Assembly: GCA_041666645.1 (NCBI GenBank)
Contig: JBAYGN010000001.1
Span: 110,276-174,275, forward strand
Direction of reading: 5' to 3'
From: Minisyncoccota bacterium
Lineage (GTDB): Bacteria; Patescibacteriota; Minisyncoccia; Phycocordibacterales; UBA5272
Length of the DNA: 64,000 nucleotides
In this document: piece by piece, positions 41,786-58,545 of the stretch
Layout: each line of letters begins with the position of its first letter
Numbering within the stretch: position 1 is the stretch's first letter
Notes under the pieces: model-generated
What the model was told of the DNA's origin: nothing
The model's input: the letters and a program-made list of their open reading frames with translations, nothing else
The model's database searches: none
Program-made: the position numbers and the translations under genes

Positions 41786-41902
41786 TAGATGTATACGGGT
41801 AATTATATCACGACCGTTTTAGGTTTATGGGTATGTCTCTATACGAAAAAGGTTTGGTTTTTATTTCAAAAATTATGCTCGCAGTTCTTATGTCCGACAG
41901 GC

Positions 41903-41945
41903 AAGTTAAAAAACACACCAGTAGAACTGGTGTGTTTTTTAACTT
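41903..41945 (-). terminator. Terminator that follows the displaced tRNA-Ser 3'-end copy
   Basis: AAGTTAAAAAACACACC agtagaac GGTGTGTTTTTTAACTT. Confidence 0.65.
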
Positions 41946-41964
41946 GTGCGGAGGATGTGAGATT
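41942..41964 (-). repeat. Direct repeat (attR-like): copy of the tRNA-Ser 3' end
   Basis: ACTTGTGCGGAGGATGTGAGATT matches 58543-58564 (ACTTGGCGGAGGATGTGAGATT) with 17 nt exact plus 5 nt after a 1-nt indel. Confidence 0.85.
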
Positions 41965-42045
41965 AGGTCACAAAACTACCTCGCTTTGCTCGAAGTAGTT
42001 TCGCGACCCCTATTCGAATCTCCGCAAGTGACGCAGGTCACTTGC
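41965..42045 (-). repeat. tRNA-linked structured module, copy D (island-internal, next to the repeat)
   Basis: The minus strand reads GCAAGTGAC-CTGC-GTCACTTGC, then GGAGATTCGAATAG, then the hairpin GGGTCGCGAAACTAC...GTAGTTTTGTGACC, then TAATCTC. It is preceded by a long A/T hairpin at 42064-42106. Confidence 0.8.
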
Positions 42046-42267
42046 TTTCTTTACCTTCGCGGTCAAAAGAAAAATCTAGAGTATGAAACTCTAGCTTTTT
42101 CTTTTGATGCGGGCATCCTCGAGTTAGGACCTTTTGAGGACAAGACCTGTAAGGTTATTTATATCATTTTAATTTTTCAAAATCAACGCTCCTCGAGCGT
42201 CTAGAAAAAGTGACAAAAGTGACACAGGATAGACTAGTAAAAGTTACAGTTAATTGTAACTATTTTC

Positions 42268-43032
42268 TTACTTTTTCCTATTTAATTCCTCTTGTGCCCT
42301 TTTTGGATTTGTAGCAAAAACAGTTACACCACGCTTATCTGGATACTCCTCAATTATCATTATTCCACCTTCAAGATCAAATTTTTCACATATAGGTTTT
42401 AGTGCTTCAAGTGTATATGCAAGAAGATCTTTGAATACAAGTTTTCTTAAGTAGTCGTTATATGGTCTTTCCATAGCTAAATCTCTAGTACCCCTGAACT
42501 TTGAGTGCAAATAGGTTGATAAGTGGCTGTAACTGTCGTACACGGAACTTGAACCAATTTCATTAGATTCCTCTCTAATACTTTTACCGTCCCAATGATT
42601 CTTATTATTACCAGACGGAGAATAATCTTCAGTCATCTTTTTAAGATACTCTAGTAACTCTTTTCCTTTTGGAGGAATATCACTCATCTTATCTGCACGC
42701 TTCAAATATTCTTTTGTTGAAAAATATTTATAGTTTGAAGCTCTTTTCTCAGTGTCGTCTTTGTATATGTATCTAAGATTAATAGTAGTCTCTAAAATAC
42801 TACGAGCCATAATAATACAGCTCCTAAAATGACCCTCTTTATAGAGAATCCTCATAGATTCATACATATCAATAATTTCTTTAAGCAGGAAATCGGTAAC
42901 ATCAAAAAGATTATCTGATACTGTGTCTCCTTTTTCTTGAAATTGTTCAAGGTGTGTTTTTAAGAAATGATTGATTCGTTCAAGATCTTTTACTTGTTCA
43001 GGTTCTTTTCTCCAAAAGTTGAATATATTCAT
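42268..43032 (-). CDS. Hypothetical helical protein (last gene of the six-gene operon)
   Basis: 254 aa. Its start overlaps the upstream stop by 4 nt. No catalytic motif recognised. Confidence 0.6.
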   Translation of the reverse strand: MNIFNFWRKEPEQVKDLERINHFLKTHLEQFQEKGDTVSDNLFDVTDFLLKEIIDMYESMRILYKEGHFRSCIIMARSILETTINLRYIYKDDTEKRASNYKYFSTKEYLKRADKMSDIPPKGKELLEYLKKMTEDYSPSGNNKNHWDGKSIREESNEIGSSSVYDSYSHLSTYLHSKFRGTRDLAMERPYNDYLRKLVFKDLLAYTLEALKPICEKFDLEGGIMIIEEYPDKRGVTVFATNPKRAQEELNRKK

Positions 43033-44288
43033 TTCTTCACATTATCATCTAAAGGGACTACTTTCAAATAATCCATAATCTTGTAACCTTTTAGATGTTC
43101 GTGTGGATCAACAAATTTATACCAAGGTTCCATATGATGATAAGTCTCACCGTCTTTTATCTCACTTAAAGAACGAGACTGCACAAGTTTCTTCGGTGGC
43201 AAGAAATCCTTATTATCTTTTATAAGAAAAAGTTGAGTATGAACACCTTTACCATAACAACTAACATTACGAGCCTTTAAAACACCATCTTTAACCCATT
43301 TTCGTATTGTAGGACTTTTGAGATTAAAACTGCTTTCAATATCATATTTTGAATACCAGCTATCTTTAAGTTTTGCCAAAGATGCAGGTATTTCTTTTTT
43401 ATCAATTGCATTCTGACAGATAAGACATTTGATACCCCATCTGTCATACCAATTATCACCTTTATCATGTGTACTATGTCCACATATAAAACATGTATAA
43501 CCAACGCCATCTAAATGAAAACCATTAGGATTTTCTTTTAATTTTTCTTCTCTTGCTTTTTCTTTTTCTTTCCATTCTTCTGAGAATTTTGCCATTTGTT
43601 GCAAACCCCACTTTTCTTCCTGATACTTTTTGCCAGCCTCATGAGTTAAGCAAAAACGGTCACGGTCTATAGCAAAGTTTTCATCTATATCCTCAGCTTC
43701 TTTTTTAGTCCATATATAATCTTCAGTTTTAGAATATTTACACTTTGAACAAGTAAAAGTTGTAACAAGTTTTTCACTGGTATTTTTCTCACTGCGTTTA
43801 AGTAGACTATTACAATGTGGGCAAAGGTCTGGCTTTACTCTCCACTCTTCACCATCAGAGAAGAAAGCTCTTCTAGGAAGACATTGATTAGGACAATCAT
43901 ACATAAATAAAACACGATCTTCTTTGTTTAACTCAGACCACAACTCTTTAAAAGTTGGTTTCAAACGATTACGACAAGTAAGACACCTCATATCTTCAGG
44001 AGCTTGTGCAGATTCATACAACTCATCTCTTTTTCTATCAGAATCCATCCACTCTTGGATAGTCTTTTCTTTATTGAGATACATTTCGCCAGTTTCAAAA
44101 TGAAGGAATAGATCTGCAACAACTTTTCTCATATGTTCTGCCTGTTTCTTACTAACACCCTTAACTTTTGGAAGGCTTGTATCTTTTTCATTGTAAGACT
44201 TTTCAAGTCTACGACAACGCCCAACAGTCATCCGATCATAACGGTCTATGTATTCTTGTCGATCTTTAAGATAGGGTGACTTTTCCAT
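43029..44288 (-). CDS. Hypothetical multi-zinc-ribbon protein with a C-terminal HTH-like segment
   Basis: 419 aa. At least five CxxC pairs: CLTCRN, CPNQC, CPHCNS, CSKCKYS, CFICGH...CLICQN. The C-terminus SPTIRKWVKDGVLKARN resembles an excisionase/MerR-type HTH. Confidence 0.6.
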   Translation of the reverse strand: MEKSPYLKDRQEYIDRYDRMTVGRCRRLEKSYNEKDTSLPKVKGVSKKQAEHMRKVVADLFLHFETGEMYLNKEKTIQEWMDSDRKRDELYESAQAPEDMRCLTCRNRLKPTFKELWSELNKEDRVLFMYDCPNQCLPRRAFFSDGEEWRVKPDLCPHCNSLLKRSEKNTSEKLVTTFTCSKCKYSKTEDYIWTKKEAEDIDENFAIDRDRFCLTHEAGKKYQEEKWGLQQMAKFSEEWKEKEKAREEKLKENPNGFHLDGVGYTCFICGHSTHDKGDNWYDRWGIKCLICQNAIDKKEIPASLAKLKDSWYSKYDIESSFNLKSPTIRKWVKDGVLKARNVSCYGKGVHTQLFLIKDNKDFLPPKKLVQSRSLSEIKDGETYHHMEPWYKFVDPHEHLKGYKIMDYLKVVPLDDNVKK

Positions 44289-44312
44289 ACCTAATTTTGT
44301 AATTATACCACT

Positions 44313-45224
44313 TTAACCAAAGCTTACATTTGGGTCTTTTATTGCATTAATTATCTCCATTCTATTTTTAAAATCTGAAATATCTGAATGACAATCTTCG
44401 ATTTCATCAATTATAGAAGATGAAAAGTCGGTTCTCTTTTTAAGCAGGAACTGTAGGTACTCAGAATCAAGAGCTGGGTCAAGAGGTAACGGTTCAATAT
44501 CTTTGATAACTTTCATTAAAGTAGATTCTTTTGTTTTCATTAAAAATGCGAGAACTTCTATCATTGCAGTTTCTTCATAATCAAAAAGGATGTCATCGCC
44601 ACCACAGAGTATTTTTGCAGCCTTAGAGCTACTGCTAGAAATCTCATCTGTATACAAGTTTTTTGCGTGTGCTGATTCTTTTATTATGAGATAAATATCT
44701 TTAGTAATTTTCTTTACGGTTTTTCCAATAAACTTTTTAACTCTTAATGAATTATCCACACCAAACATGTCGTCTGTAATATCGATTTGAAGATACTTAT
44801 TTAAAAACAAATGTAATGCTTTTTTATCTTTCGATATATTTGTTACTGATTGTAAACTGAAACGATCATATCTATGAGTTTTATAGAAAATTGAAAGAAG
44901 ATTTAATAGAGCAATATGAGAATCACCCAAGTTGATATTAGTACTCTTTTTTATTCTGTTAAGTAAATCAAGATGATTGTGTGTGATTAATGATTTTTCA
45001 AAGATATTAATATCAGTTTTGTCATTAAACTCCAAAAGGACAATAGCGACTTTAAACAATCGCTCAAGTCCAACTGAAAGATTATAAAGAACTGGGAACA
45101 CTTCTGTTTCCATACTTAAGGTTTCCATTTCATGTAGATTCCTTAATCCGTCGTAAATAAAATTACAAGCAATTTCTTGTTCCTCACCAAGTTTAAAGTT
45201 TTGCCAGAATTGTGTAGGATTCAT
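44313..45224 (-). CDS. Hypothetical protein
   Basis: 303 aa. Its start overlaps the upstream stop by 4 nt. No motif recognised with confidence. Confidence 0.6.
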   Translation of the reverse strand: MNPTQFWQNFKLGEEQEIACNFIYDGLRNLHEMETLSMETEVFPVLYNLSVGLERLFKVAIVLLEFNDKTDINIFEKSLITHNHLDLLNRIKKSTNINLGDSHIALLNLLSIFYKTHRYDRFSLQSVTNISKDKKALHLFLNKYLQIDITDDMFGVDNSLRVKKFIGKTVKKITKDIYLIIKESAHAKNLYTDEISSSSSKAAKILCGGDDILFDYEETAMIEVLAFLMKTKESTLMKVIKDIEPLPLDPALDSEYLQFLLKKRTDFSSSIIDEIEDCHSDISDFKNRMEIINAIKDPNVSFG

Positions 45225-45748
45225 ATTGTGTGATCTTTAACTTTTGATAACATTTCATCAGAAGTTTTAGCAATTAACTCCTCTGTAATTCCATATTTTT
45301 TTAGCACTGGGTCCAGAGTTATTGAAAGTTGTTCATCTGCTTCGTTTATTATACTAATAGCATCTTCAAGTTCCTTAATCATACTTTTACGACCGTCAGA
45401 AAATAAAAATTCTTTTGCACGCTCCCTAAAATAGTTATGAGCTAACCAGTTTCGAAGTGTTAATGCTTTTGCTAATTTATCAGAAAGATTTAGTGGTACA
45501 TTGGTTACTTTTTCAAGATCCTTAATCATCCGACCTAGAGTATGTTCAAAGTGTCTTGAAGTAAAAGAATCAACACTATCTTCCCAATCTTTTGAATGTG
45601 ACACTGGCATTTTTGAAGGGATGAGATCGAGATAAATAAGAGCATTAACTAAACCGTGCTCAAGACATTGGGCACTGTAGATAGCAAGTCCAAAATATGC
45701 ATAAACTTCTTTTACTTCTTCATTTTTTGATGATGTATCAATAATCAT
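45221..45748 (-). CDS. Small helical protein with a HEPN-like Rx4H motif
   Basis: 175 aa. LRNWLAHNYF fits the RNxxxH HEPN signature. Its start overlaps the helicase stop by 4 nt. Confidence 0.6.
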   Translation of the reverse strand: MIIDTSSKNEEVKEVYAYFGLAIYSAQCLEHGLVNALIYLDLIPSKMPVSHSKDWEDSVDSFTSRHFEHTLGRMIKDLEKVTNVPLNLSDKLAKALTLRNWLAHNYFRERAKEFLFSDGRKSMIKELEDAISIINEADEQLSITLDPVLKKYGITEELIAKTSDEMLSKVKDHTI

Positions 45749-47580
45749 ATATTTACTATTTCAAATCCTTCAAAACAGGTTTTGTCTTGCATTGCATCAA
45801 ATATGGTTTTTTGTATCGCGAAAGCAAAAAGATCTTGAGGTCGTGAAGACGCAACATAAATTAATTTTTTATATTTTTTAGTTAACTTATTCTGATTATT
45901 TTGCATTCCATGTTCAATATCATATTTACCGTATGGTGATTTGGTACTTGATATAAATAAAGTTGCATTATGGGTTTGACCTTTAACACTATGAATAGTG
46001 CCTATCCTAACATTAACCCCTTGAGAACTTTTATAGGAATTTGTCCTCTCTTTTATTTCAGTAGAAGTAATTTTCTTCATATTAAATTTAATAAGATCTT
46101 CTCCTAAAATAATATTCAATTTTTCCTGTAATTCAGGAAAGTTTAATACTCCTCCATTAGTTAGGATTTCATTACTAATATCTAATACCATCTTTTTAAA
46201 ATCACTATCTTCATTAAAAAGTTTTTCATGTAATTCAGTCCATGTTCCTTCATTCTTGAAATGCTTATAAAGAAGACGGTATAAAATATTGGATACATGA
46301 TGAGTGCCATTTTTTCTGACTAAATCAGGTGTAAGTAAATTTATGTAATCAATATCATTGGAAAATTTTAAAGTTTTATTTTTCTTATTACTTACCGTTG
46401 ATTCCCTGGAATAGGAGTCAGGGAAACTCTCAATTAATTGATCATGCTCATAGGCAATAGCAAAATAGCCTTTCTGGTTGTCATGTGGTATCTGTTTAGA
46501 AATTAAAATTTCTGAGAATTTTTCAAGGAGATCTTCATTACAACCATTTGAGTAAGTAATTAGAATCTTTTCAGAAGTATTAGTAGATCCTCTTATTGTA
46601 TTTTCTCCAAAGGTGTTTAGACAAAAACCACTCACAAAGGTAATTAGATTTGAACCACAGCGAATTGATTGACCCAAAAATAAAGTAGGTTCAGGGGCAC
46701 TCCAAGCATCTTCAGATATAGACTGATTTATGTCCCCAATTTGTTGGAAACATACTTGTGTATTTTTCCCGAACAAATCATCTAACAATTTAAGTTGAAT
46801 TTCAGAACAATCTTGTGATTCATCAAGCAATACAAAATTAAACCTTTTACTAATAATCTTACTGAACACAGGGTGCTGTTTTAAATACTCCAATGCGTAT
46901 ATAAAACTTTCAATAAATAAAAAGTTACCCTTCTGATGTTGTTTATCTATTAAAGTTTTTATATGGGTATTTGATTGAGCCAATGGAAACGCTATAGTCT
47001 TTAAACTATTGTATTCTGTAAGTTTCTTTGAATCTACGACTTTATCTTGATAGAAACATAGCCTATGAAACTCATTCCAAAATCTAGCAACGGCATCATC
47101 TCCTCCGTGTCTTAATTGTGATAGCTTATTCGATATTCTTGTCTTTAAAGAAGTATCCCCGTCATTGTCATAGTCAAGATATCTACTTTCATCTTGAAAT
47201 CTTATCTGCATATTTACACTTGCTAGATAAGGTATAAAAAGAAATTTATTTACAAATTCTTGTATAGTGCCTACAAAATTTGGATACTCCATTATTTCAG
47301 GATAATGATTTGCTACTCTACTTTTGATTTCATCAATAGCAATATTAGTATGGGAAATAACACAAATACCTTTTCCTGTTTCCCAAACTCTTTTTTGAGC
47401 AAGGATATGTAATTTACCAACCAAAGTACTAGTTTTCCCTGACCCTGCATACGATTGTAAAGAACAAGAATCTAAACATTTTAAAAAAGCTTTTTGTTCG
47501 TCTGAAAAAGACCCTTGTCCAAGGAAAATATCTTGTTCGGCTTTATTTATCTCTTCATCTGTGACAATAAAATTACACAT
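45745..47580 (-). CDS. UvrD/PcrA/Rep-like superfamily 1 helicase (GajB-like)
   Basis: 611 aa. Walker A YAGSGKTSTLV, Walker B VLLDESQD, and the C-terminal motifs IGTIHSVKGQTHNATLF and IYVASSRPQDL. Confidence 0.85.
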   Translation of the reverse strand: MCNFIVTDEEINKAEQDIFLGQGSFSDEQKAFLKCLDSCSLQSYAGSGKTSTLVGKLHILAQKRVWETGKGICVISHTNIAIDEIKSRVANHYPEIMEYPNFVGTIQEFVNKFLFIPYLASVNMQIRFQDESRYLDYDNDGDTSLKTRISNKLSQLRHGGDDAVARFWNEFHRLCFYQDKVVDSKKLTEYNSLKTIAFPLAQSNTHIKTLIDKQHQKGNFLFIESFIYALEYLKQHPVFSKIISKRFNFVLLDESQDCSEIQLKLLDDLFGKNTQVCFQQIGDINQSISEDAWSAPEPTLFLGQSIRCGSNLITFVSGFCLNTFGENTIRGSTNTSEKILITYSNGCNEDLLEKFSEILISKQIPHDNQKGYFAIAYEHDQLIESFPDSYSRESTVSNKKNKTLKFSNDIDYINLLTPDLVRKNGTHHVSNILYRLLYKHFKNEGTWTELHEKLFNEDSDFKKMVLDISNEILTNGGVLNFPELQEKLNIILGEDLIKFNMKKITSTEIKERTNSYKSSQGVNVRIGTIHSVKGQTHNATLFISSTKSPYGKYDIEHGMQNNQNKLTKKYKKLIYVASSRPQDLFAFAIQKTIFDAMQDKTCFEGFEIVNI

Positions 47581-47586
47581 ACAATT

Positions 47587-49329
47587 TTATTCGTCATTCT
47601 TAGGTGGTAAAACAAAATTAATTGAATCAACAATATACGGTAAATTATCAGTGATTTCTGTTTTTATAATTTTTACTTTTTTATCTTTTAAATCAATTAA
47701 CTCAGAAATTTTTTGTGCAACTTCTTGAGCAAGAACGGCTTTCTTTTTCTTCATTCTTGAATACAAGAAGCTTACAGGCATTTCATTTGTAAGCAGTGCT
47801 TTCTTTCGCAATATTTTTGAATTATAAGCATCAAGATATAATTGTTTAAGTTCTTTTGTTTTACTTAAGATTAAGGTTTCAAAGGTAGTGCCTTGGTCTT
47901 TTGATATCTGTAACGCAGAATTTAATTGCTCGCCAACAAAACAACCAATATTATTATTTGTATCAATTATTAAGCTCTTATATTTTTCCATCGATGAACT
48001 ATTCCTCTTGTCGGCATCCGTCATAACAGCAATAGGAATTTTGTTGTAAGGTGCGGTTACACGTTTAAAAATATTTACAAAATGTTCAAACCCAAGACCA
48101 TTGGTTGAGACAACAGATAATCCATAATCAGTAAGATCATAACCTAAAACTTTCGCAAACTCAGGTAATAATAATTGTTCTGTCGTACCCTCAACTAAAA
48201 TTACACCTTGTGCAAAAAATAAGTTTGCTTTAGTTGCACTTAAAAATCTTCCTAAATAAGAGTAGTTATCATCAGTTAATTTAGTAGACCCTTTGGAAAG
48301 GGAGTAGAAATCTGCATTATTAATAGTACAAAGCCGTTCAATATCTACGACAGAAGCAAGATTAGGGCTATGGGTAGTTAATATCATTTGAATACCCTTT
48401 TTTGATTCATCTTGTAGAGCACGGATAATTTTGAGTTGTCTCTGTGGATGTAGATGGGCTTCAATCTCTTCCACTAAAAGCATATTAGGATTTTTATGTG
48501 TATTTAAGTGCAACAGTTCTGCCGCAATAAAAATCATATTAAGAGTACCCAATCCTGGCTTATTCAAATTCTCATAATACAAAGAGATTCTCTCTAATGC
48601 TTTTAAGTGATCAATTTTTTCCGTTGGTCCAAAATTTATATCTTTTTTACTGTAATGTGATTGTTCGTCAAATAAATCAAGAAGTCTCTTAACCTCTTCA
48701 GCAATTTCTCCTCCGTTGCCACCAGATGAAAAGAAGTTTTTTGATGAGCGTTCAAAATCTTCCAAGAAACTCTTAAGTTCAAATTCATTATTTTTTATGT
48801 CCTTATGCTCTTTCAATATTTTAGAAATTCTAGATCCTTGTTTTGCTCGTAATTCATTTTCTGCATCTCTTAGCGGTCTTAAATAAACAACTTTAAAATT
48901 TTCACGACAGTGTGGGTCCATGTCTATCGCAACATCCTTTGTTGGTCCAACTTTAAACGATGGGAATTTAATACCTTTCTCATCAGCTTTTGCTGTATAC
49001 CAAATTTTCAACTCAGGAACATCACCTTCACCAAAAGATAAGTATTCTGCAAAGAGACTTGTATCCTCTACAATATCTTCTTCTGAAACACAATCATCGA
49101 AAGCAAAAACAAGGTCAATATTTATTTCTTTTGTAGTGTCTTTGAAATCATCAATTTGTAATTTTACATAGTCATCAACAACTTGTTTCAATACTAATCT
49201 TAAAGCATCTATGAGAGCTGTTTTCCCAGAATCGTTAGCACCAACAATAAGATTAAGCCCACAATTAAAAGTACACACTGCGTCATCAATCTTTCTAAAG
49301 TTTTTAATATGAGCATTTTTGAGATACAT
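47587..49329 (-). CDS. OLD-family ATP-dependent endonuclease, ABC-type ATPase plus TOPRIM (GajA-like)
   Basis: 580 aa. Walker A VGANDSGKTALIDAL, LLVEEIEAHLHPQ, and TOPRIM motifs VILVEGTTEQLLLPEF...VMTDADK. A TATAAT box lies 6 nt upstream of the ATG (49336-49341). Confidence 0.85.
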   Translation of the reverse strand: MYLKNAHIKNFRKIDDAVCTFNCGLNLIVGANDSGKTALIDALRLVLKQVVDDYVKLQIDDFKDTTKEINIDLVFAFDDCVSEEDIVEDTSLFAEYLSFGEGDVPELKIWYTAKADEKGIKFPSFKVGPTKDVAIDMDPHCRENFKVVYLRPLRDAENELRAKQGSRISKILKEHKDIKNNEFELKSFLEDFERSSKNFFSSGGNGGEIAEEVKRLLDLFDEQSHYSKKDINFGPTEKIDHLKALERISLYYENLNKPGLGTLNMIFIAAELLHLNTHKNPNMLLVEEIEAHLHPQRQLKIIRALQDESKKGIQMILTTHSPNLASVVDIERLCTINNADFYSLSKGSTKLTDDNYSYLGRFLSATKANLFFAQGVILVEGTTEQLLLPEFAKVLGYDLTDYGLSVVSTNGLGFEHFVNIFKRVTAPYNKIPIAVMTDADKRNSSSMEKYKSLIIDTNNNIGCFVGEQLNSALQISKDQGTTFETLILSKTKELKQLYLDAYNSKILRKKALLTNEMPVSFLYSRMKKKKAVLAQEVAQKISELIDLKDKKVKIIKTEITDNLPYIVDSINFVLPPKNDE

Positions 49330-49450
49330 AAGACAATTATAACATTTTTGACTTGATTTTTATATATTATGTTGTATTTAAAATTTTGTTATAAATAAAG
49401 CTATGTTAAACTCAAAATAGTACATTCATAAATCACAATCTTGCTTTTTA

Positions 49451-49690: not shown

Positions 49691-50965
49691 ATGCAAAAAC
49701 CCAATTGGCGAGCAGAAAAAAGACTACTGAAAGATCTCAAAACATGGCTTGCAAATCCACGCAAAATTACAAAAGATAATTTTGCAAAATTAATAAAAAG
49801 AATAACAGAACGTGGTTTCCATGATGTTATCAAAATTGATACTGATGGGACTGTACTCTCAGGAAATCAAAGGAGAAAAGCATTAATAGAGCTAGGTATA
49901 AAAGAAGTTATTGTTTTAATTCCCGACCGCAAACTCACAGAAGATGAACGTAACAAAATCGCACTCGAAAGTAATATTAATGATGGTGAGTGGGATTTCG
50001 AAGCTTTGAAGTTATTTGAACTAGATACACTTTCGGAAGTTGGTTTTAATGAAATAGATGTTAAAAACATTTGGGGTGAAAATCTAGAAGCTAAAAATGA
50101 CGAATTCAATGAAACTGAAGAACTTAAAAAAATTAAGAACCCTAAAACTAAGAAAGGAGATCTCATAATTTTCGGTAAACATAAGTTACTATGTGCCAGT
50201 TCAACAGATAGTAACGCAGTGAAGGCATTGTTTGGAAATGATAAAGCATCTGTTATCTATAGCGACCCACCTTTTAACATTGGGCTCGACTATAACAAAG
50301 GAGTAGGTTTAAAAGCCAACTATGGTGGTAATGTCGATGATAGTAAGTCAGCAGAAGATTATAAAGAATTTATAAGAAAGACATTAGTAAACGCTCTAGC
50401 AGTATCTTATAAAGATGTTCACTGCTTCTATTGGTGTGATGAGGCTTGGGTGTGGGTATTTCAGACTCTGTACAACGAACTTGGTATTAAAAATAGAAGG
50501 CTTAACATTTGGTTAAAAAATAATTCATCACCTTGTCCTAATGTAGCTTTCAATAAAGCAATTGAAGTGTGTTGCTATGGAACTTTAGGAAGTCCACATA
50601 TTTCTAACTCGTTAAAAAATCTCAATGAGATTATGAACAAGGAGTTAACAACTGGCAATGAATTATTTGATGATGTGACAAATGTACTTGCCGTTAAACG
50701 ACTTCCATCTAATCAATATGAGCATCCGACAAGTAAGCCACCAAGTCTTCATGAAAAACCAATCAAGCGTTGTAGTCAGGTTGGAGATATAATTTTTGAC
50801 TCTTTCTCTGGGTCTTCTAGCACAATGATCTGTGCAGAACAATTAAGCAGAAGGGTGTACTCACTAGAGATTTCGGAAGTCTTTTGTGATTTAGCTATCC
50901 GTCGTTGGGAGAAGTTAACAGGTAAGAAAGTAAAGGTAATTAAAAACTTCTATGAAGAAAACTAA
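49691..50965 (+). CDS. ParB-like nuclease domain fused to an N6-adenine/N4-cytosine DNA methyltransferase
   Basis: 424 aa. N-terminal ParB-type motif VLSGNQRRKAL. SDPPFNIG (motif IV) precedes FDSFSGSSST (motif I), which is a beta-class motif order. Confidence 0.8.
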   Translation: MQKPNWRAEKRLLKDLKTWLANPRKITKDNFAKLIKRITERGFHDVIKIDTDGTVLSGNQRRKALIELGIKEVIVLIPDRKLTEDERNKIALESNINDGEWDFEALKLFELDTLSEVGFNEIDVKNIWGENLEAKNDEFNETEELKKIKNPKTKKGDLIIFGKHKLLCASSTDSNAVKALFGNDKASVIYSDPPFNIGLDYNKGVGLKANYGGNVDDSKSAEDYKEFIRKTLVNALAVSYKDVHCFYWCDEAWVWVFQTLYNELGIKNRRLNIWLKNNSSPCPNVAFNKAIEVCCYGTLGSPHISNSLKNLNEIMNKELTTGNELFDDVTNVLAVKRLPSNQYEHPTSKPPSLHEKPIKRCSQVGDIIFDSFSGSSSTMICAEQLSRRVYSLEISEVFCDLAIRRWEKLTGKKVKVIKNFYEEN

Positions 50966-51353
50966 ACTCCAAAACCAATTCTTTATTGAATTGGAAAAAG
51001 TCCCCATCATTCAAGTTGCTTGTGAAAAAACTGGTATATCTCGTAATAGCGTATACCGTTGGCGTAAGGAAGACAAAGTATTCTGTAAGAATATGGATGA
51101 GTCAATTTCAAATGGTGTTGCACTCGTAAATGATATGAGCGAATCACAGTTACTTAGCCTTATTAAAGAAAAGAACTATTCGGCTATTTCTTTTTGGCTT
51201 CGACATAGAAATGACAATTACAAAGACAGAATAGAAGTAACTACTAAAGAAGAAAAAGGAGAACTTACGAAAGATCAACAAAAAGTTATAAAGCATGCTC
51301 TTAAGCTTGCTTCTCTCACAAAGCAGAAGTCTATTAAAAATATCAACAGATAA
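50952..51353 (+). CDS. Putative terminase small subunit / HTH DNA-binding protein
   Basis: 133 aa. VACEKTGISRNSVYRWRKED is an HTH. It lies directly upstream of the large terminase and overlaps the methylase gene by 14 nt. Confidence 0.55.
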   Translation: MKKTKLQNQFFIELEKVPIIQVACEKTGISRNSVYRWRKEDKVFCKNMDESISNGVALVNDMSESQLLSLIKEKNYSAISFWLRHRNDNYKDRIEVTTKEEKGELTKDQQKVIKHALKLASLTKQKSIKNINR

Positions 51354-51358
51354 GTTAT

Positions 51359-52807
51359 ATGAAAAACAAACATATCTTTGATGTTTTAAGTAGAAATATC
51401 ATCAACAAAATGATGAAAGATAAAGCTGTTAGGGTTGCAATTACTACAGAAAGCTTTTTGTATTTCTTTCACTTTTACTATGCACATTATGTGGGATACA
51501 AGACAGCAGATTTTCAGAAAGAAATTTTTCATTTACTTGAAAAGAGTAATACTGAAAATCTTTACATTGTTGCCTTTCGTGGGTCAGGTAAATCAACTCT
51601 TGTTACTACTGCTTACCCTATATGGGCAATATTAGGTAAACAAAAAAAGAAATTCTGTGTTATCTTTTGCCAAACAAGAAATCAAGCTAAGCAACACATG
51701 ATGAACATTAAAAAAGAGCTCGAAAATGATAATCTTCTTAAAAGTGATCTCGGTCCTTTCCAAGAAGAATCAGATGAGTGGGGGTCGTATTCTTTAGTGT
51801 TTAAAAAACATGGGGCAAGAATTACTGTTGCTTCAACTGAGCAAAGTATCCGTGGTATTCGTCACAATGAACACAGGCCAGACTTAATTATTTGTGACGA
51901 TGTGGAAGATGTTCAATCTGCTAAAACACGAGACGGTCGTGATAAAACATATAACTGGCTTAGAGGTGAGGTTATTCCTTGTGGTGATATAAATACTCGC
52001 TTAATTATTATAGGCAACTTACTTCATGAAGATTCGTTACTGATGAGAATTCAAGATGAGGTGAATAATAATAAAACAAGAGGAGTGTTTAAGAAGTATC
52101 CACTATTAAACGATAATGGTGAATGCTTGTGGACTGGTAAATATCCCGATGAAGAAGCAATCGAGGATGAAAGACTAAAAGTTGCAAGTGAAGTTTCTTG
52201 GTATAGAGAGTATTTACTTAAGATAATCTCTACCGACGGACAAATCGTAAATCCTGAATGGATACAATTTTATGATAAATTTCCAGCAACTGGTCTACAT
52301 AGTATTTGTATAGGTATTGATCTTGCGGTAAGCGAAAGAGATTCCGCAGACTGTACAGCCATGTTAGTTGGGTATGTATATGGAACAGGTAAAAATATGA
52401 AAGTTTATCTAAAAGAGAATCCAATTAATGAAAGAATCTCATTTCCTGTACAAGCAGAATATGTAAAAGCATTAGTAGCTACTGAGAAATTAATACATCA
52501 TAGAGTTAAACTGTTTGTGGAAGATGTTGGATATCAAAAAGCATTTATACAACTCTTTGAAAGTAAGAACTACAATATAGAGGGTGTTCCAACAGGAAGA
52601 AACGATAAAGCTACACGATTAAGAATGACTACTCCTTTTATTAAAGAAGGAAGAGTCCTTTTTCCTAAAAATGGCTGTGAGGAATTGATTCAACAATTAC
52701 TAGGATTTGGAAAAGAAAAACATGACGATCTTGCGGATTCTTTTTCAATCTTAGTATTAAAAGTAATTGAAACTAATCCTAGTGGTGGAGGAATATTATT
52801 TGGGTAA
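51359..52807 (+). CDS. Phage terminase large subunit
   Basis: 482 aa. Walker A FRGSGKSTL and Walker B LIICDDVED. The C-terminal RNase-H-like nuclease has acidic residues at GIDLAVSERDSAD and HDDLADSF. Confidence 0.8.
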   Translation: MKNKHIFDVLSRNIINKMMKDKAVRVAITTESFLYFFHFYYAHYVGYKTADFQKEIFHLLEKSNTENLYIVAFRGSGKSTLVTTAYPIWAILGKQKKKFCVIFCQTRNQAKQHMMNIKKELENDNLLKSDLGPFQEESDEWGSYSLVFKKHGARITVASTEQSIRGIRHNEHRPDLIICDDVEDVQSAKTRDGRDKTYNWLRGEVIPCGDINTRLIIIGNLLHEDSLLMRIQDEVNNNKTRGVFKKYPLLNDNGECLWTGKYPDEEAIEDERLKVASEVSWYREYLLKIISTDGQIVNPEWIQFYDKFPATGLHSICIGIDLAVSERDSADCTAMLVGYVYGTGKNMKVYLKENPINERISFPVQAEYVKALVATEKLIHHRVKLFVEDVGYQKAFIQLFESKNYNIEGVPTGRNDKATRLRMTTPFIKEGRVLFPKNGCEELIQQLLGFGKEKHDDLADSFSILVLKVIETNPSGGGILFG

Positions 52808-53551
52808 CCTTCCTCCACTGTTTAAACAATCATTTATTGAAGCAAAAGAAGTATATTTAAGAGTTGCGTTATAATACCTTGTCCCTTTAGCATGACAGAT
52901 TCCTGTACTACTCTTTTTAACTTCAGTATTGCTAGTACTAACTGTTGTATTGACTATGCTGTTTTCTTTTGGAGCAAGTATGACACTTGTTACCACAGTA
53001 GTAGCAACAGGAACAACATTTGAAGTTGTAGTTTTTGGTTGTACGACTGTTTTAGTGGTAACACCCAATACTTCTATTTGATAGTAAGATAGCCAATCAG
53101 ATGATATTTGTCTTTGTGCTTCTACAATATCCATCTTTCCACCACACACTTGTTTATGTAGATAGTTTTCAAACTTATCCTTTATACGAGCATTATCTTT
53201 GATTGTGTAAGATTCAGGATAAAGATTAGATATGTCATTACTTCCACCAAGCTCTAAACTAATGATATGGTCTACTTCGTAGTTACTTCTTTGAGAGTAA
53301 GGAATACCGTATTCTTTAAATACTTTCTTCTTAGTTGTTTCAGTTACATTTCTAACAGTTTTTGTATAACCTGTTTTACAGATTACTTTTATATCTGTTG
53401 TTAATACTGCCCCAGGAGAACAAGCAGAATCTGGCAGTGTTTGATTACCTACACAGTTACTCGTTTTAGTTTGAATCCCATAAGTAGCAAAAACTACATT
53501 ACTTGAAATTAGAGCTAACGAAACGAAGAATATAGATATCTTTTTGTTCAT
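52796..53551 (-). CDS. Secreted HNH-motif nuclease-like protein
   Basis: 251 aa. Signal-peptide-like N-terminus and YEVDHIISLELGGSNDISNLYPE (an HNH-type motif). Confidence 0.6.
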   Translation of the reverse strand: MNKKISIFFVSLALISSNVVFATYGIQTKTSNCVGNQTLPDSACSPGAVLTTDIKVICKTGYTKTVRNVTETTKKKVFKEYGIPYSQRSNYEVDHIISLELGGSNDISNLYPESYTIKDNARIKDKFENYLHKQVCGGKMDIVEAQRQISSDWLSYYQIEVLGVTTKTVVQPKTTTSNVVPVATTVVTSVILAPKENSIVNTTVSTSNTEVKKSSTGICHAKGTRYYNATLKYTSFASINDCLNSGGRLPK

Positions 53552-53563
53552 AGTATTTACATA

Positions 53564-54040
53564 CTACCTTATAACCATCTCGTTTGGAACCCAACCTGCT
53601 TGTCCTATATATTTACCTTCATTGATTCTAACTTCACTAGAAAAATAACTAGCATCAATCACTTTAACTGCTGTACTTTTATCTACCAATAAAATCTTTC
53701 CATCTAATGACATTTGAGCAAGTCCAGTTGTATCATTAGCTGCAACAAGCTTCATCATTTCATCGTAGTAACTTTTATTTATAGCAACTAAAACTGGATT
53801 ATTACCTGAAATAGTTAAGTGAGCATTCTCTCCAATTTTTACAGATTCAACTACAGGCTGTGATGTGCTTGAACCATCTGAAAATGATGACCGTATAATA
53901 CCTATTACAAAAAGAATTAAGATACTCTGATAGATTCTTTTCTTGATTACTGATGGTTGTTTTTTACCACAATGTTTACATACTGTGGCATCGTTTAAAA
54001 TTTCTTCTTTACAGAAGTTACACTTTTTATTTGTATTCAT
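53564..54040 (-). CDS. Zinc-ribbon membrane protein, hypothetical
   Basis: 158 aa. CNFCKEE...CKHCGKK zinc ribbon followed by one TM. Confidence 0.5.
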   Translation of the reverse strand: MNTNKKCNFCKEEILNDATVCKHCGKKQPSVIKKRIYQSILILFVIGIIRSSFSDGSSTSQPVVESVKIGENAHLTISGNNPVLVAINKSYYDEMMKLVAANDTTGLAQMSLDGKILLVDKSTAVKVIDASYFSSEVRINEGKYIGQAGWVPNEMVIR

Positions 54041-54046
54041 AAATTA

Positions 54047-54190
54047 TCTGATAGGACTTAATAATCTCTCGTGGAAAGCAAAAATCCCACCACGTGAGTA
54101 AGGTCTTGCGACCTTCATATCTGTTTCCAGATATGGCCTATCAGAGCAAAGCCCACATGATGGGGTTTTTACTCTGATAGGACTTTTTTC
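54047..54190 (+). promoter_or_regulatory. Candidate structured leader or small RNA with mutually exclusive helices upstream of the recombinase gene
   Basis: CTGATAGG (54048-54055) can pair with CCTATCAG (54137-54144), enclosing three hairpins. Alternatively CCTATCAGAG pairs with CTCTGATAGG (54172-54181), which is followed by TTTTTT. A possible promoter TTACAC-16 nt-TAAATT lies just upstream. Confidence 0.4.
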
Positions 54191-54342
54191 ACCATATCAA
54201 TATTGCTATTGGGTTAGGTTACTATTGAATTGTTCCTCTTAATACTCTTTGTATTAATCTATTGATTATATCGCAAATAATTGCTTTTGCTAAGGCATTT
54301 TTATCAACAAATAAATCTCTCACAATGTCGCCTTTTTTAATT

Positions 54343-54386: not shown

Positions 54387-55712
54387 ATGGAACAACAAGA
54401 AACATTTGGACTTATGGGCAATATGGTAGCTCTACCAGTTCAAAAAATGAAATACGTTTTGTATAGTAGAAAAAGTACTGAATCAGAAGAAAGACAAATT
54501 CTTTCAATTGATTCTCAAATTAAAGAAATGCTTAGATTAGCAGAAAGAGAAGGATTAGAAATAGTGGATATCAGACGAGAATCTCATTCAGCTAAAGATT
54601 CAGGACAACGACCAGTTTTTAAAGAAATATTAGAAGATATAAAAAGAGGAAGATTTAATGGAATACTTGCATGGGACGCTTCAAGAATTAGTAGAAATGC
54701 TGGTGACTTAGGTTCAATAGTAGATCTTATGGATCAACAGTTGCTTTTTCAAATACGAACATATGGGCAAACATTTTCTAACTCTCCAAATGAAAAGTTT
54801 TTGCTAATGATTTTATGTTCTCAAGCAAAACTAGAGAACGATAATAAAAGTGTAAATGTGAAGCGTGGACTAAGAACTAGAGTTGAGATGGGATTATGGC
54901 CATGCCCTGCCCCTACTGGATATTTGAAAGAAAATAGAATGGATAGAAAATGTCAGACATATATTGATCCAGATAGAGGTCATATCATTAAAGAAATGTT
55001 TGAGAAGATTGCTTATAATAAATGGAGTTGTTTAAAAGTCTACCATTGGCTTAAATTTGATCTTAATTTTAGAACTTCATACGGAAAGAAACATCTTAGT
55101 TTAGGGAACATTAACTTACTTTTAAAGAACACCTTTTACTATGGAGAATTTGAGTATCCAAGAAAAAGTGGTAACTGGTATAAAGGAAGTCATAAACCAC
55201 TCATTACCAAAGAACTATACGATCAAGTACAAGCTCAACTGACAAGACAAATTACAAGAACAGAATTCAATAACAGAGAATTCGCTTTCACCAAACTAAT
55301 GACTTGTGGGCTTTGCGGTTCTGGTATTACAGCTGATGAAAAGATAAAGAAACAACAGAATGGTAATATTCATCGATATGTCTATTATGCGTGTACTAAA
55401 GCAAAAGATAAAAACTGTAAATGTGGCTATACCAATGAAGACGAACTCATAAAACAGTTTCAAGAACTATTGGATAAAATTGACCTAGACGAGATAGGCA
55501 TGAAAGAAAAGATACGAACTGAGGTTGAAAGGATTAAGAGCTTCCAAAGAAGCGTTTTAGGGGATACAAAGCAAATTAAGGTTAAGGATGTAGATATTCG
55601 TAACTATGCTAAGTACATCCTAAAAGAAGGAACTGACCTAGAAAAAAGAGAACTATTAGGATGTTTTAAAAGTAAGATTTTATTAAAAAATAAAATGATA
55701 TCTATTACTTAG
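54387..55712 (+). CDS. Large serine recombinase
   Basis: 441 aa. N-terminal resolvase motif YSRKSTESEE with the catalytic Ser, then a recombinase domain, then the zinc ribbon CGLCGSG...YYACTK...C.C. The true start may be a later in-frame ATG. Confidence 0.85.
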   Translation: MEQQETFGLMGNMVALPVQKMKYVLYSRKSTESEERQILSIDSQIKEMLRLAEREGLEIVDIRRESHSAKDSGQRPVFKEILEDIKRGRFNGILAWDASRISRNAGDLGSIVDLMDQQLLFQIRTYGQTFSNSPNEKFLLMILCSQAKLENDNKSVNVKRGLRTRVEMGLWPCPAPTGYLKENRMDRKCQTYIDPDRGHIIKEMFEKIAYNKWSCLKVYHWLKFDLNFRTSYGKKHLSLGNINLLLKNTFYYGEFEYPRKSGNWYKGSHKPLITKELYDQVQAQLTRQITRTEFNNREFAFTKLMTCGLCGSGITADEKIKKQQNGNIHRYVYYACTKAKDKNCKCGYTNEDELIKQFQELLDKIDLDEIGMKEKIRTEVERIKSFQRSVLGDTKQIKVKDVDIRNYAKYILKEGTDLEKRELLGCFKSKILLKNKMISIT

Positions 55713-56472: not shown

Positions 56473-56573
56473 GTAATCGCATTATAGAACAAAAACTTGA
56501 TCTTCTCCACCTTTTGTGTTTTAATACTTAAAGCTTGATCGAAACAATCCAATGTGATAGAATTATCTTTGAT

Positions 56574-58445: not shown

Positions 58446-58545
58446 AAAAATTATTAGTTAAATTATATCACAAAAGCTACCTAATTAAGGTAGCTTTTGT
58501 TGTCATTTAATTCTATGCTCATCGAGCACCAGAACCTAAACGACT

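What the first reader, a model, noticed from the sequence alone, without database searches (positions are those of the whole stretch)
41903..42106. One module copy sits 16.6 kb from its tRNA, with the island cargo between the tRNA and the module
Copies A, B, C and E share one order: tRNA, long A/T hairpin, CTGC hairpin, GC hairpin, tRNA 3'-end repeat, terminator. For the tRNA-Ser at 58546-58635 the same order holds (hairpin 42064-42106, module 41965-42045, repeat 41942-41964, terminator 41903-41945). The difference is that about 16.4 kb of island genes lie between the tRNA and the long hairpin.

So the short units look like cargo-less versions of the island backbone. Alternatively the module is a pre-existing landing pad next to which cargo is inserted. 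Either way the module is tied to a tRNA-targeted integration mechanism whose target specificity changes with each tRNA.
Basis: partly seen in the sequence, partly recalled or inferred. Interest (0 to 1): 0.7.

Follow-up and report, generated by a model that had tools for sequence, protein, structure and literature searches.

The report
Defence island splits tRNA-module unit
A 16.4-kb mobile island of anti-phage genes was inserted by a serine recombinase at the very end of a serine tRNA gene of a Patescibacteria (CPR) bacterium, separating that tRNA from a small hairpin element that normally sits right behind most tRNA genes in these bacteria; the insertion is ordinary, but I could not find the small element described anywhere.

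Summary
A fifth copy of the tRNA-linked module (41943-42063, minus strand) carries a 17-nt exact copy of the 3' part of tRNA-Ser(ACU), which lies 16.4 kb away. Defence genes fill the interval.

The module and its long hairpin are chromosomal, not island backbone.
- A relative (L102) has tRNA-Ser(ACU), hairpin and module contiguous.
- About 56% of tRNAs of all isotypes in the Patescibacteria loci sampled here (picked for holding a module) carry such a module, with no island.
- A sister island at tRNA-Gln (L243) has no module.
- The island's conserved ends, which form a symmetric attP-like site when joined, lie between the tRNA CCA end and the long hairpin.

So a large-serine-recombinase (LSR) island of about 42118-58545 integrated at the tRNA 3' end and split a pre-existing unit. 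It carries Gabija, a type II restriction-modification system, an N6 methylase-HTH core and a LOOT RNA. The 17-nt repeat belongs to the module and is not the island's att site. The same arrangement recurs at other tRNAs (L010, L045, L002, L068).

The module itself is a covarying structure readable only on the tRNA-sense strand. It is absent from Rfam 15 and from IMG/VR viral contigs. Its function is unknown.

The parts
41902..41946 (.). Terminator-type hairpin after the module: 20-bp perfect stem with a GC core followed by T6.
   Evidence: Sequence read. The first 20 nt are the exact reverse complement of the last 20.
41948..41964 (-). The module's built-in copy of the tRNA-Ser(ACU) 3' part (T-loop end, T-stem 3' strand, acceptor 3' strand). 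17 nt are exact; with one indel it extends to 41942.
   Evidence: identical to 58548-58564. The same position in the other modules carries the tail of their own tRNA.
41966..42008 (-). Long hairpin of the module (GGUCGCG...UGUGACC), with G.U pairs that exist only on the tRNA-sense strand.
42009..42025 (-). Conserved bulge (AAUAGG) plus the left arm GCGGAGAUUCG, which is the T-stem 5' strand followed by the complement of the T-loop.
42024..42045 (-). Small hairpin with loop CUGC. All 9 pairs covary across copies.
42054..42106 (-). Degenerate complement of the acceptor 3' strand (42054-42063), then the long A/T hairpin (42064-42106) that follows the tRNA directly in genomes without the island.
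42106..42117 (-). 12-nt chromosomal spacer GATGCCCGCATC between the island end and the long hairpin. It is the inferred B' side of attB, and possibly a decayed tRNA-end copy.
   Evidence: At the same position L243 has a perfect 11-nt copy of its tRNA-Gln end.
42118..42260 (-). Distal end of the island (P arm): ...GTCACTTTTGTCAC...ACAGGTCTTG..GGTCCTAACTCG-AG. It is homologous in the islands of L010, L243 and L068.
42268..49329 (-). Variable cargo: a DUF5677 protein, three proteins with no family match, GajB (45745-47580) and GajA (47587-49329), i.e. Gabija.
49691..54040 (.). Conserved island core and its neighbours: N6/N4 DNA methylase, a small HTH protein, a helicase, an HNH-like protein and a 158-aa ORF.
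   Evidence: The methylase-HTH-...-LSR order is shared by L010, L240, L241 and L243.
54100..54220 (-). LOOT RNA (RF03000), divergent from the recombinase gene.
   Evidence: 87 bits against a gathering score of 46. It occupies the same position in L240, L241 and L243.
54387..55712 (+). Large serine recombinase, 441 aa, pointing towards the tRNA.
   Evidence: Resolvase + Recombinase + Zn_ribbon_recom; YSRKSTE motif; SPbeta and TP901-1 integrases are the closest solved relatives.
55705..57815 (.). Type II restriction-modification pair: a MutH/Sau3AI-like endonuclease and a C5 methylase.
58500..58545 (-). Proximal end of the island (P' arm): AG-TCGTTTAGGTTCTGGTGCTCGATGAGCATAGAA, starting right after the tRNA CCA. 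It is homologous to the L243 island end.
58546..58635 (-). tRNA-Ser(ACU), a chromosomal target gene.
   Evidence: It lies next to tRNA-Ser(GCU) without an island in L061 and L102.

Best explanation
The bacterium is a Patescibacteria/CPR member; NCBI labels the identical recombinase as from a 'Candidatus Paceibacterota' MAG. Like its relatives, it carries a roughly 120-nt structured module behind most tRNA genes. The unit runs: tRNA, long hairpin, small CUGC hairpin, an extended T-stem that encloses a long hairpin, then a copy of the tRNA 3' part.

A 16.4-kb integrative defence island (about 42118-58545) was inserted by its own large serine recombinase immediately after the CCA end of tRNA-Ser(ACU), upstream of that tRNA's long hairpin. 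This pushed the hairpin and module 16.4 kb away.

The 17-nt repeat at 41948-41964 is the module's own tRNA-derived arm. It was there before the island and is not an attachment-site repeat.

**Shown:** the anatomy, the homology of the island ends across islands, a contiguous tRNA-module arrangement in a relative, and recurrence at other tRNAs.

**Inferred:** that the recombinase catalysed the insertion, the AG crossover, and that the island can still move.
For: 1. **Empty-site arrangement.** L102 has tRNA-Ser(ACU), long hairpin and module contiguous. The window's tRNA joined to 41935-42104 aligns collinearly with it: 191 identical of 265 columns, with the small-hairpin and T-arm stretch identical. 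L061 also has tRNA-Ser(ACU) with a module 66 nt downstream.
2. **Island ends.**
   - The distal ends of the window, L010, L243 and L068 islands are homologous up to ...ACGGTTCTAACTCGAG and diverge beyond it.
   - The proximal ends of the window and L243 islands are homologous for about 40 nt starting right after the tRNA CCA.
   - Both end motifs occur once each in the window.
   - Joined, they give ..GGTCCTAACTCG-AG-TCGTTTAGGTTC.., with CCTAA/TTAGG equidistant from the centre, as expected of a serine-integrase attP.
3. **Recombinase.** It has the full LSR domain set and the catalytic-serine motif, and it is related to the SPbeta and TP901-1 integrases. No tyrosine integrase was found among the island ORFs.
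4. **Island family.** The order methylase-HTH-...-LOOT RNA-LSR, with variable defence cargo, recurs in L240, L241 and L243. The LSR points towards a tRNA on the opposite strand in L241 and L243.
5. **Recurrence.** Island-end signatures precede modules that lack an adjacent tRNA in L010 (Trp-like), L045 and L002 (Lys-like) and L068 (Gln).
6. **Modules are general and island-free.**
   - 74 of 131 tRNAs of all isotypes in 78 CPR loci have one within 150 nt.
   - There are none in L240, L241 or L243, and none in IMG/VR.
7. **Composition and cargo.** Island G+C is 32.3% against 36-39% in the flanks. The cargo is Gabija plus a type II restriction-modification system.
Against: - No empty site from the same species was recovered. 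Same-species contigs break inside the modules or the island, and a junction-specific metagenome scan found nothing. L102 is a different species.
- The exact crossover is not defined.
- The 12 nt between the island end and the hairpin (GATGCCCGCATC) matches the tRNA end only weakly, whereas L243 has a perfect 11-nt repeat there. It is therefore unclear whether the crossover lies just after the tRNA or within its last dozen nucleotides.
- The two island arms also resemble each other in direct orientation (AGGTyCT..CTCGAkGA), which I cannot explain.
- Recombinase activity and mobility are untested.
Confidence: 0.85

Rival explanations
1. The hairpin and module are the island's own backbone (its attR-side arm). 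The short tRNA-module units are then islands that lost their cargo, like the cis-mobilisable elements left by integrative elements.
For: The order of parts is the same in all five units. Tandem module arrays exist and resemble accretion at an att site (L045, L090). In young-looking units the tRNA tail is perfectly repeated: 32 nt at the window's tRNA-Met.
Against: - The short units lack both island end motifs.
- Islands of the family hold no module, and the L243 island ends directly on a tRNA-Gln tail copy with no module.
- The conserved island end lies inside of, and is separate from, the hairpin and module.
- Spacing is isotype-specific and shared by different MAGs (Gly 67-69 nt, Cys 48, Lys 87-91, Val 84-88).
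- No module was found in 2.9 million viral contigs.
Confidence: 0.04
2. The 17-nt repeats are the crossover core of a classical tRNA-targeting integration (tyrosine-integrase style), so the element spans 41965-58547.
For: A direct repeat of a tRNA 3' part at the far end of an island is the textbook signature of such elements (own knowledge; Williams 2002). The repeat starts in the T-loop, a known integrase sublocation.
Against: - No tyrosine integrase is present among the island ORFs.
- The same repeat exists where there is no island (L102, L061 and the four short units).
- About 150 nt of chromosomal hairpin and module lie between the island's conserved end and the repeat.
Confidence: 0.03
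3. The module or its long hairpin is a required part of the recombinase's chromosomal target (a true landing pad), so islands can only enter tRNAs that carry a module.
For: In five of six islands with a readable distal junction, the island abuts the long hairpin of a module (window, L010, L045, L002, L068). The B' sides begin with a similar A-rich hairpin foot (AAAAGAAAAAG, AAAACAAAAAAC).
Against: L243 has no hairpin or module at its distal junction. As 56% of tRNAs carry modules anyway, five of six is not a strong excess. LSR sites are usually about 40-50 bp (own knowledge), which would reach only the hairpin foot.
Confidence: 0.08
4. On the module itself: it is a functional structured RNA made from the tRNA-sense strand. 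It would be a 3'-trailer element that imitates the acceptor/T-arm half of its tRNA and is handled by tRNA-processing enzymes. It is not a recombination site.
For: - 94.9% of pair cells are standard pairs against 75.8% in shuffles; 738 double-change cells against 247; slid controls give 32-48%. The picture is the same on a MAFFT alignment.
- All 9 pairs of the small hairpin covary around a constant CUGC loop.
- G.U dominates at two pairs of the long hairpin, one of them not fixed by the search pattern (89 G.U, 11 G-C, 10 A-U), so the fold exists only on the sense strand.
- Antisense model scores are 19 bits or less against 51-120.
- Folding z-scores are -4.3 to -7.8.
Against: - A terminator-like hairpin usually lies between the tRNA and the module.
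- No expression data are available.
- The acceptor-derived flanks are recognisable in only about 40% of units, so a full tRNA-like acceptor stem is not conserved.
- The T-arm strands mostly just track the tRNA and show few independent compensatory changes.
- A sense-strand single-stranded DNA structure would give the same statistics.
Confidence: 0.45
5. On the module itself: it is the footprint of a small non-autonomous mobile element that inserts into tRNA T-loops and copies the target tail. The element is now mostly fixed and decaying.
For: - Direct, inverted and direct copies of the tRNA tail flank conserved inserts.
- The repeats are of very different ages: 32 nt perfect at tRNA-Met against none at tRNA-Glu.
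- Presence or absence differs between genomes for the same tRNA: Ser-GCU has a module in the window and L102 but not in L061.
- There are tandem copies and a chimeric copy (L083).
- The apical hairpin types are shared among different tRNAs.
Against: No known insertion mechanism gives an inverted target copy. No associated enzyme was identified. Sequence variants and isotype-specific spacing are shared across distant MAGs, with no within-genome bursts of identical copies.
Confidence: 0.3

Closest known systems
Large-serine-recombinase integrative elements (SPbeta SprA, TP901-1, A118/LI integrases; SCCmec CcrAB at the 3' end of rlmH)
   Same: The three-domain recombinase is the same. The joined island ends form an imperfect palindrome around a short centre, and no long att repeat is needed. 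As in SCCmec (own knowledge), the insertion is at the 3' end of a conserved gene, and a conserved recombination core carries swappable cargo.
   Different: The targets are the ends of tRNA genes, and they differ between islands (Ser, Gln, Trp- and Lys-like). The host is Patescibacteria. A LOOT RNA gene is a constant neighbour of the recombinase. No phage or conjugation genes are present.
Classical tRNA-targeting genomic islands with tyrosine (P4-type) integrases
   Same: An island sits next to an intact tRNA, with a displaced copy of the tRNA tail further on. The cargo consists of accessory and defence genes, and the G+C content is lower than in the flanks.
   Different: There is no tyrosine integrase. 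The conspicuous 17-nt repeat does not lie at the island boundary and pre-dates the island.
Defence islands
   Same: Gabija (GajA/GajB) and a type II restriction-modification system are present in the window. Sister islands carry CBASS-like, type I restriction-modification and ThiF/JAB/E2 cargo.
   Different: The family is defined by a conserved methylase-HTH-LOOT-LSR core and is very abundant in CPR: 7999 of the 8000 candidate clusters scored reach E <= 1e-60.
Cis-mobilisable elements (CIMEs): integrative elements reduced to their att sites, as in Streptococcus thermophilus (own knowledge)
   Different: The short units here lack the island's att arms. They have a covarying internal structure and occur at most tRNAs.
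tRNA-like or tRNA-linked RNAs: the 3' external transcribed spacer of glyW-cysT-leuZ, MALAT1 mascRNA, viral tRNA-like structures, the tmRNA tRNA-like domain (own knowledge)
   Same: The module lies in the tRNA 3' trailer. It reuses the T-stem and, in part, the acceptor sequence of its tRNA, and it folds on the sense strand.
   Different: There was no Rfam match even at E <= 10. The T-loop is replaced by a bulge plus a 17-20-bp hairpin, there are no D or anticodon arms, and each copy is matched to a different tRNA. Processing and aminoacylation are untested.

Membership tests
Large serine recombinase integrative element | Recombinase with an N-terminal resolvase catalytic domain, a recombinase domain and a zinc-ribbon domain | tested here: met
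   Pfam PF00239, PF07508 and PF13408 on window 54387-55712. SPbeta and TP901-1 integrases are the best solved relatives.
Large serine recombinase integrative element | Catalytic serine motif near the N-terminus | tested here: met
   The sequence ..YVLYSRKSTESEERQ.. is read in the translation. The residue is assigned by inspection only.
Large serine recombinase integrative element | Element ends that join into an imperfectly palindromic attP around a central dinucleotide, with no long direct repeat | tested here: inconclusive
   Joined ends read ..AAAAGGTCCTAACTCG-AG-TCGTTTAGGTTCTGG.., with CCTAA/TTAGG equidistant from the centre. The ends are conserved in sister islands. The crossover itself is inferred, and L243 shows an 11-nt repeat.
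Large serine recombinase integrative element | An unoccupied target site exists in relatives | tested here: met
   L102 and L061 have tRNA-Ser(ACU) followed directly by hairpin and module. These are different species; no same-species empty site was found.
Large serine recombinase integrative element | Excision or integration activity (circular junction, in vitro recombination) | not testable with these tools
   Needs reads or an experiment.
Tyrosine-integrase tRNA island | A tyrosine recombinase gene in the element | tested here: not met
   No Phage_integrase hit among the island ORFs of 80 aa or more.
Tyrosine-integrase tRNA island | Direct repeats of the tRNA 3' part exactly at both element boundaries | tested here: not met
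   The 17-nt repeat lies about 150 nt beyond the conserved island end and is present without an island.
Cargo-less derivative of the island (CIME-like) | The short unit retains both att arms of the parent element | tested here: not met
   The motifs CTAAC[TA]CGAG and AGTCGT..TAGG occur only at 42118 and 58535, and in none of the four short units.
Defence island | Known defence systems as cargo | tested here: met
   GajA 1.4e-141, GajB 8.7e-106, type II REase 1.7e-39. C5 and N6 methylases are also present.
LOOT RNA (Rfam RF03000) | Score above the family's gathering threshold | tested here: met
   87.1 bits against 46.4 at 54100-54220, and 78-85 bits in three sister islands.
Any Rfam 15 family (for the module) | A covariance-model match | tested here: not met
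   Nothing at gathering score. Only chance-level microRNA-type hairpin hits at E <= 10 on 41880-42130, and no tRNA-model hit.
MITE-like element (for the module) | Terminal inverted repeats, a fixed-length target duplication and near-identical dispersed copies | tested here: not met
   There are no terminal inverted repeats. The repeat length runs from 0 to 32 nt. Mean column identity among the window's five copies is 61%.
tRNA-like structure (for the module) | An acceptor-stem and T-arm mimic that is processed, CCA-tailed or aminoacylated | tested here: inconclusive
   The T-stem arms pair in about 74% of positions. The acceptor-derived strands are recognisable in only about 40% of units. Biochemistry is not testable here.

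The most novel reading that the evidence does not exclude
The module is a previously undescribed class of tRNA-linked structured RNA that is widespread in Patescibacteria. One copy is matched to each tRNA. It would be made from the 3' trailer, imitate the T-arm/acceptor half of its tRNA, and take part in tRNA end-processing or in sensing or decoying factors that recognise tRNA 3' halves, including the many integrases that target them. The split unit in this window would then be a natural experiment: a tRNA that has worked without its module in cis since the island arrived.
Probability: 0.4. Interest if true: 0.75.

Novelty: new member of a known kind. Interest (0 to 1): 0.42.

Why it matters
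For the finding as filed, the result is a clean and ordinary explanation. A serine-recombinase defence island entered the end of a tRNA gene, and the striking 17-nt repeat 16 kb away was already there. This guards against mis-assigning island boundaries in CPR genomes from tRNA-tail repeats.

Three by-products have more value.

1. **A very abundant island family in Patescibacteria.** It has a conserved methylase-HTH-LOOT RNA-recombinase core and swappable anti-phage cargo. These organisms are thought to be poor in defence systems (my own recollection, not checked here).
2. **A genomic home for the orphan LOOT RNA.** It sits next to this recombinase gene in all four islands examined.
3. **The module as a real, covarying, sense-strand structure.** It lies behind more than half of the tRNA genes sampled and is absent from Rfam.

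If the module proves to be a functional RNA, it would add a new layer to tRNA gene organisation in a major bacterial radiation.

Tried and rejected
- **Junction-specific metagenome scan.** I searched for tRNA-Ser(ACU) end, 70-100 nt, then module core. There were 0 hits, so no close empty site was recovered.
- **Same-species contigs** found through the flanking FMN-binding protein and MscL. All break inside modules or the island and are uninformative on presence or absence.
- **Palindrome as empty attB.** I first read CCAAGTCGTGCTAGCACGAG, seen after tRNA-Ser(ACU) in several metagenome contigs, as the empty attB. I dropped this when the L243 island at tRNA-Gln showed the same AGTCGTG.. directly after its CCA. 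That sequence is an island end, not chromosome.
- **RNA-guided targeting by LOOT.** The LOOT-recombinase intergenic regions of three islands show no cognate-specific match to their own attB or tRNA tail. Cognate matches are 6-7 nt; non-cognate matches reach 10 nt.
- **Phage origin of the module.** The five pattern hits in IMG/VR are not modules: they get no model hit and have no tRNA nearby.
- **Independent compensatory evolution of the module's T-stem arms relative to the tRNA.** Only about 11 of 448 positions show it, mostly at the outermost pair, so the arms mainly track the tRNA.
- **Literature.** Five full-text searches found no description of the module or of a LOOT-recombinase link. The supplement of the paper that named LOOT is not held.
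- **Ribozyme, riboswitch or tRNA-model identity of the module.** None was found in Rfam.
Full report
**Observation**

The window holds six tRNA genes. Reading the DNA downstream of each shows the same set of parts after tRNA-Asp, tRNA-Met(+), tRNA-Glu and tRNA-Ser(GCU):
- a long A/T-rich hairpin that starts at the tRNA end;
- a small hairpin with loop CTGC;
- a short arm made of the tRNA's T-stem 5' strand plus the complement of its T-loop (..NNTCGAAT);
- a conserved bulge A(C)GGG;
- a long hairpin GTCGCG...GTGAC;
- a copy of the tRNA's own T-loop end, T-stem 3' strand and acceptor 3' strand.

A fifth copy lies on the minus strand at 41943-42063. Its tRNA-derived arm is an exact 17-mer of tRNA-Ser(ACU), which is 16.4 kb away (41948-41964 = 58548-58564).

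- The five copies align with 61% mean column identity.
- Each folds far better than its shuffles, with z-scores of -4.3 to -7.8.
- A covariance model run with filters off finds exactly these five in 64 kb, at 51-120 bits. Nothing else exceeds 19 bits.

**What lies between**

Pfam and PADLOC place these genes in the interval:
- a DUF5677 protein;
- Gabija (GajA 47587-49329, GajB 45745-47580);
- an N6/N4 methylase, a small HTH protein, a helicase and an HNH-like protein;
- a large serine recombinase (54387-55712);
- a MutH/Sau3AI-like type II endonuclease with a C5 methylase.

Rfam finds a LOOT RNA at 54100-54220, divergent from the recombinase gene. G+C is 32.3% against 36-39% in the flanks. 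No tyrosine integrase is present.

**The module is a general feature of Patescibacteria tRNA genes**

Most are from MAGs labelled Saccharibacteria, Paceibacterota, Parcubacteria, Nomurabacteria or Gracilibacteria. A handful are chance hits in high-G+C genomes.

- The core starts 48-95 nt after a same-strand tRNA of almost any isotype. The spacing is typical of the isotype: Gly 67-69 nt, Cys 48, Lys 87-91, Val 84-88.
- The covariance model found 119 copies in 78 of the first 100 loci. Of 131 tRNAs with enough downstream sequence, 74 have a module within 150 nt.
- The module matches no Rfam family even at E <= 10.
- It is absent from 2.9 million viral contigs.
- Five literature searches found no description.

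**The structure is supported by covariation**

- 94.9% of pair cells are standard pairs against 75.8% in shuffles.
- There are 738 double-change cells against 247.
- Slid controls give 32-48%.
- The result is the same on a MAFFT alignment that was not fitted to the model.
- All nine pairs of the small hairpin covary around the constant CUGC loop.
- Two pairs at the base of the long hairpin are predominantly G.U. One of them was not fixed by my search pattern (89 G.U, 11 G-C, 10 A-U). The fold therefore exists only on the tRNA-sense strand.

Caveats:
- Part of the long-hairpin base was fixed by the search pattern.
- The T-stem arms mostly just track the tRNA sequence.
- The acceptor-derived strands are recognisable in only about 40% of units.

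**The module pre-dates the island**

- L102 carries tRNA-Ser(GCU), module, tRNA-Ser(CGA), tRNA-Ser(ACU), long hairpin and module in one stretch.
- The window's tRNA-Ser(ACU) joined to 41935-42104 aligns collinearly with L102. 191 of 265 columns are identical, and the 43-nt stretch from the small hairpin to the T-arm is identical.
- L061 also has tRNA-Ser(GCU), tRNA-Ser(ACU) and a module, with no island.

So both the tRNA and its module are chromosomal, and the island is the newcomer.

**Where the island ends**

A tblastn search of the island proteins against the fetched loci found the recombinase at 55-72% identity in several of them. L010 also shares the methylase-HTH-helicase-recombinase order.

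*Distal side*
- In L010 the same island end abuts the long hairpin of a module that belongs to a different, Trp-like tRNA.
- The distal ends of the window, L010, L243 and L068 islands are homologous through ..GTCACTTTTGTCAC...ACAGGTCTTG..ACGGTTCTAACTCGAG and diverge immediately afterwards.

*Proximal side*
- The window and L243 islands are homologous for about 40 nt beginning right after the tRNA CCA: AGTCGT.TAGGTT.T...GC.CGA..GC.TAGAA.

*Both ends*
- Each end motif occurs once in the window, at 42118-42127 and 58535-58545.
- Joined, they read ..AAAAGGTCCTAACTCG-AG-TCGTTTAGGTTCTGG.., an imperfect palindrome with CCTAA/TTAGG equidistant from the centre. This is what a serine-integrase attP looks like (the crossover at AG is my inference).

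The island therefore occupies about 42118-58545. It fills exactly the gap between the tRNA CCA end and a 12-nt spacer (42106-42117) in front of the long hairpin. The module lies outside it.

**The island family**

- The recombinase has the full large-serine-recombinase domain set, a YSRKSTE catalytic motif, and the SPbeta and TP901-1 integrases as its closest solved relatives.
- It belongs to a very large CPR family. 7999 of the 8000 candidate clusters scored reach E <= 1e-60, and the best 120 are 69-77% identical to it.
- NCBI labels the 100% identical protein as from a Candidatus Paceibacterota MAG.
- Three contexts (L240, L241, L243) show the same core: N6/N4 methylase, small HTH, a variable gene, LOOT RNA, recombinase.
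- The core is flanked by different cargo: CD-NTase plus Cap15, type I restriction-modification, and ThiF/JAB/E2.
- In L241 and L243 the recombinase points towards a tRNA-Gln on the opposite strand, as in the window.
- The L243 island ends distally on a perfect 11-nt copy of its tRNA-Gln tail and has no hairpin or module there. The module is therefore not needed.
- None of the three 21-kb loci contains a module.

**The arrangement recurs**

Of the modules with room upstream but no adjacent tRNA, most keep a short remnant of a tRNA tail just before their long hairpin. Four of them (L010, L045, L002, L068) are preceded by the end signature of this island family. Insertions into tRNA 3' ends that push the hairpin and module away are thus common in these genomes.

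**Verdict on the interpretation**

- 'Pre-existing unit, cargo inserted next to it' is right.
- 'Short units are cargo-less island backbones' is not. They lack the island arms, and they are far more widespread than the islands.
- The 17-nt repeat is not an att repeat.
- The recombinase's inferred sites are unrelated to the repeat and to the module.
- Islands of this family do use different tRNAs. This is a property of the recombinase family, not of the module.

**What the module might be**

I could not settle this.

- *Evidence for a functional sense-strand RNA.* The module could be a 3'-trailer element imitating the T-arm half of its tRNA. Supporting this are the covariation, the strand-specific G.U pairs, the constant loop and bulge, and the shared isotype-specific spacing across distant MAGs.
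- *Evidence for a history of insertion or duplication.*
  - The tRNA tail appears as direct, inverted and direct copies.
  - The repeats are of very different ages: 32 nt perfect at tRNA-Met, reaching 15 nt beyond the tRNA, but nothing at tRNA-Glu.
  - Presence differs between genomes for the same tRNA.
  - There are tandem copies (L045, L090).
  - There is a chimera whose left arm matches a Thr-like tRNA and whose right arm is the Ser(ACU) tail (L083).
- *Open problem.* No mechanism I know of produces the inverted copy.

I put about 0.45 on a functional RNA and about 0.3 on the relic of a small mobile element.

**Limits**

- There is no same-species empty site.
- MAG taxon labels are taken as given.
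- The crossover and the activity of the recombinase are inferred.
- There are no expression data.

Noticed in passing
window 58546-58635 (-); also L061 7792-7881, L102 982-1069 and L121-L239: This is a class II tRNA-Ser with anticodon ACU (loop UUACUAA), next to tRNA-Ser(GCU). A34 is unusual in bacteria outside tRNA-Arg (own knowledge). The gene is widespread: more than 119 metagenome contigs share the anticodon loop and the same 3' end. AGT is four times as frequent as AGC among the window's Ser codons.
   Followed up: partly
window 54100-54220 (-); L240 9724-9851, L241 9718-9841, L243 9730-9846: LOOT RNA (RF03000), which I recall as an orphan metagenomic motif, always lies 150-280 nt upstream of, and divergent from, the large serine recombinase gene of this CPR island family. 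The whole 340-nt intergenic region is conserved. I found no target-specific complementarity to attB.
   Followed up: partly
window 49691-55712; L240, L241, L243, L010: The island family has a conserved core (N6/N4 methylase, small HTH, LOOT RNA, recombinase). Its cargo varies: Gabija with a type II restriction-modification system, CD-NTase with Cap15, type I restriction-modification, and ThiF/JAB/E2. The recombinase family is very large: 7999 of the 8000 candidate clusters scored reach E <= 1e-60.
   Followed up: partly
L083 4723-4914 (-): This module is a chimera. Its left arm matches the upstream Thr-like tRNA, but its 3' repeat is the tRNA-Ser(ACU) tail (CGAATCTCACATCC). That suggests recombination between modules at two loci.
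   Followed up: no
L045 3705-4192 (+); L090 3026-3251 (+); L054 456-714 (+): Modules occur in tandem. L045 has three copies with a 182-nt period behind an island end. L090 has two after tRNA-Phe and L054 has two after tRNA-Cys.
   Followed up: no
window 20000-20203 (-): The second tRNA-Met (20129-20203, minus strand) has the long hairpin whose 3' strand runs on to pair with the tRNA's own acceptor 3' strand, but it has no module (only a 13.6-bit, E = 0.39 hit). Hairpin and module are therefore separable.
   Followed up: partly
window 20361-20392 and about 20525-20556 (+): The tRNA-Met unit has a perfect 32-nt direct repeat that includes 15 nt beyond the tRNA end. This is hard to reconcile with an ancient, purely vertical module and points to recent duplication or gene conversion.
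   Followed up: no
L124, L127, L139, L161, L165, L220 and others, downstream of tRNA-Ser(ACU): Other module families share the same plan: the complement of the acceptor strand (GxGGAGGATG), a small hairpin, the T-stem followed by TCGAA, and a long hairpin. The long hairpins are unrelated and G+C-rich, so the architecture is conserved more deeply than the sequence.
   Followed up: no
window 41827-42204 (+); L115 37-414: This 125-aa ORF spans the terminator, module and hairpin, and was called as a gene in the JGI assembly. It is almost certainly spurious.
   Followed up: partly
L241 20139-20175 (-); L026 and L034 upstream of their modules: L241 has a 15-nt tandem duplication of the tRNA-Gln(CUG) 3' end just before the island junction. 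In L026 and L034 a tRNA 3' half with an intact T-arm is preceded by non-tRNA sequence, which could mean an insertion or an intron inside the tRNA.
   Followed up: no
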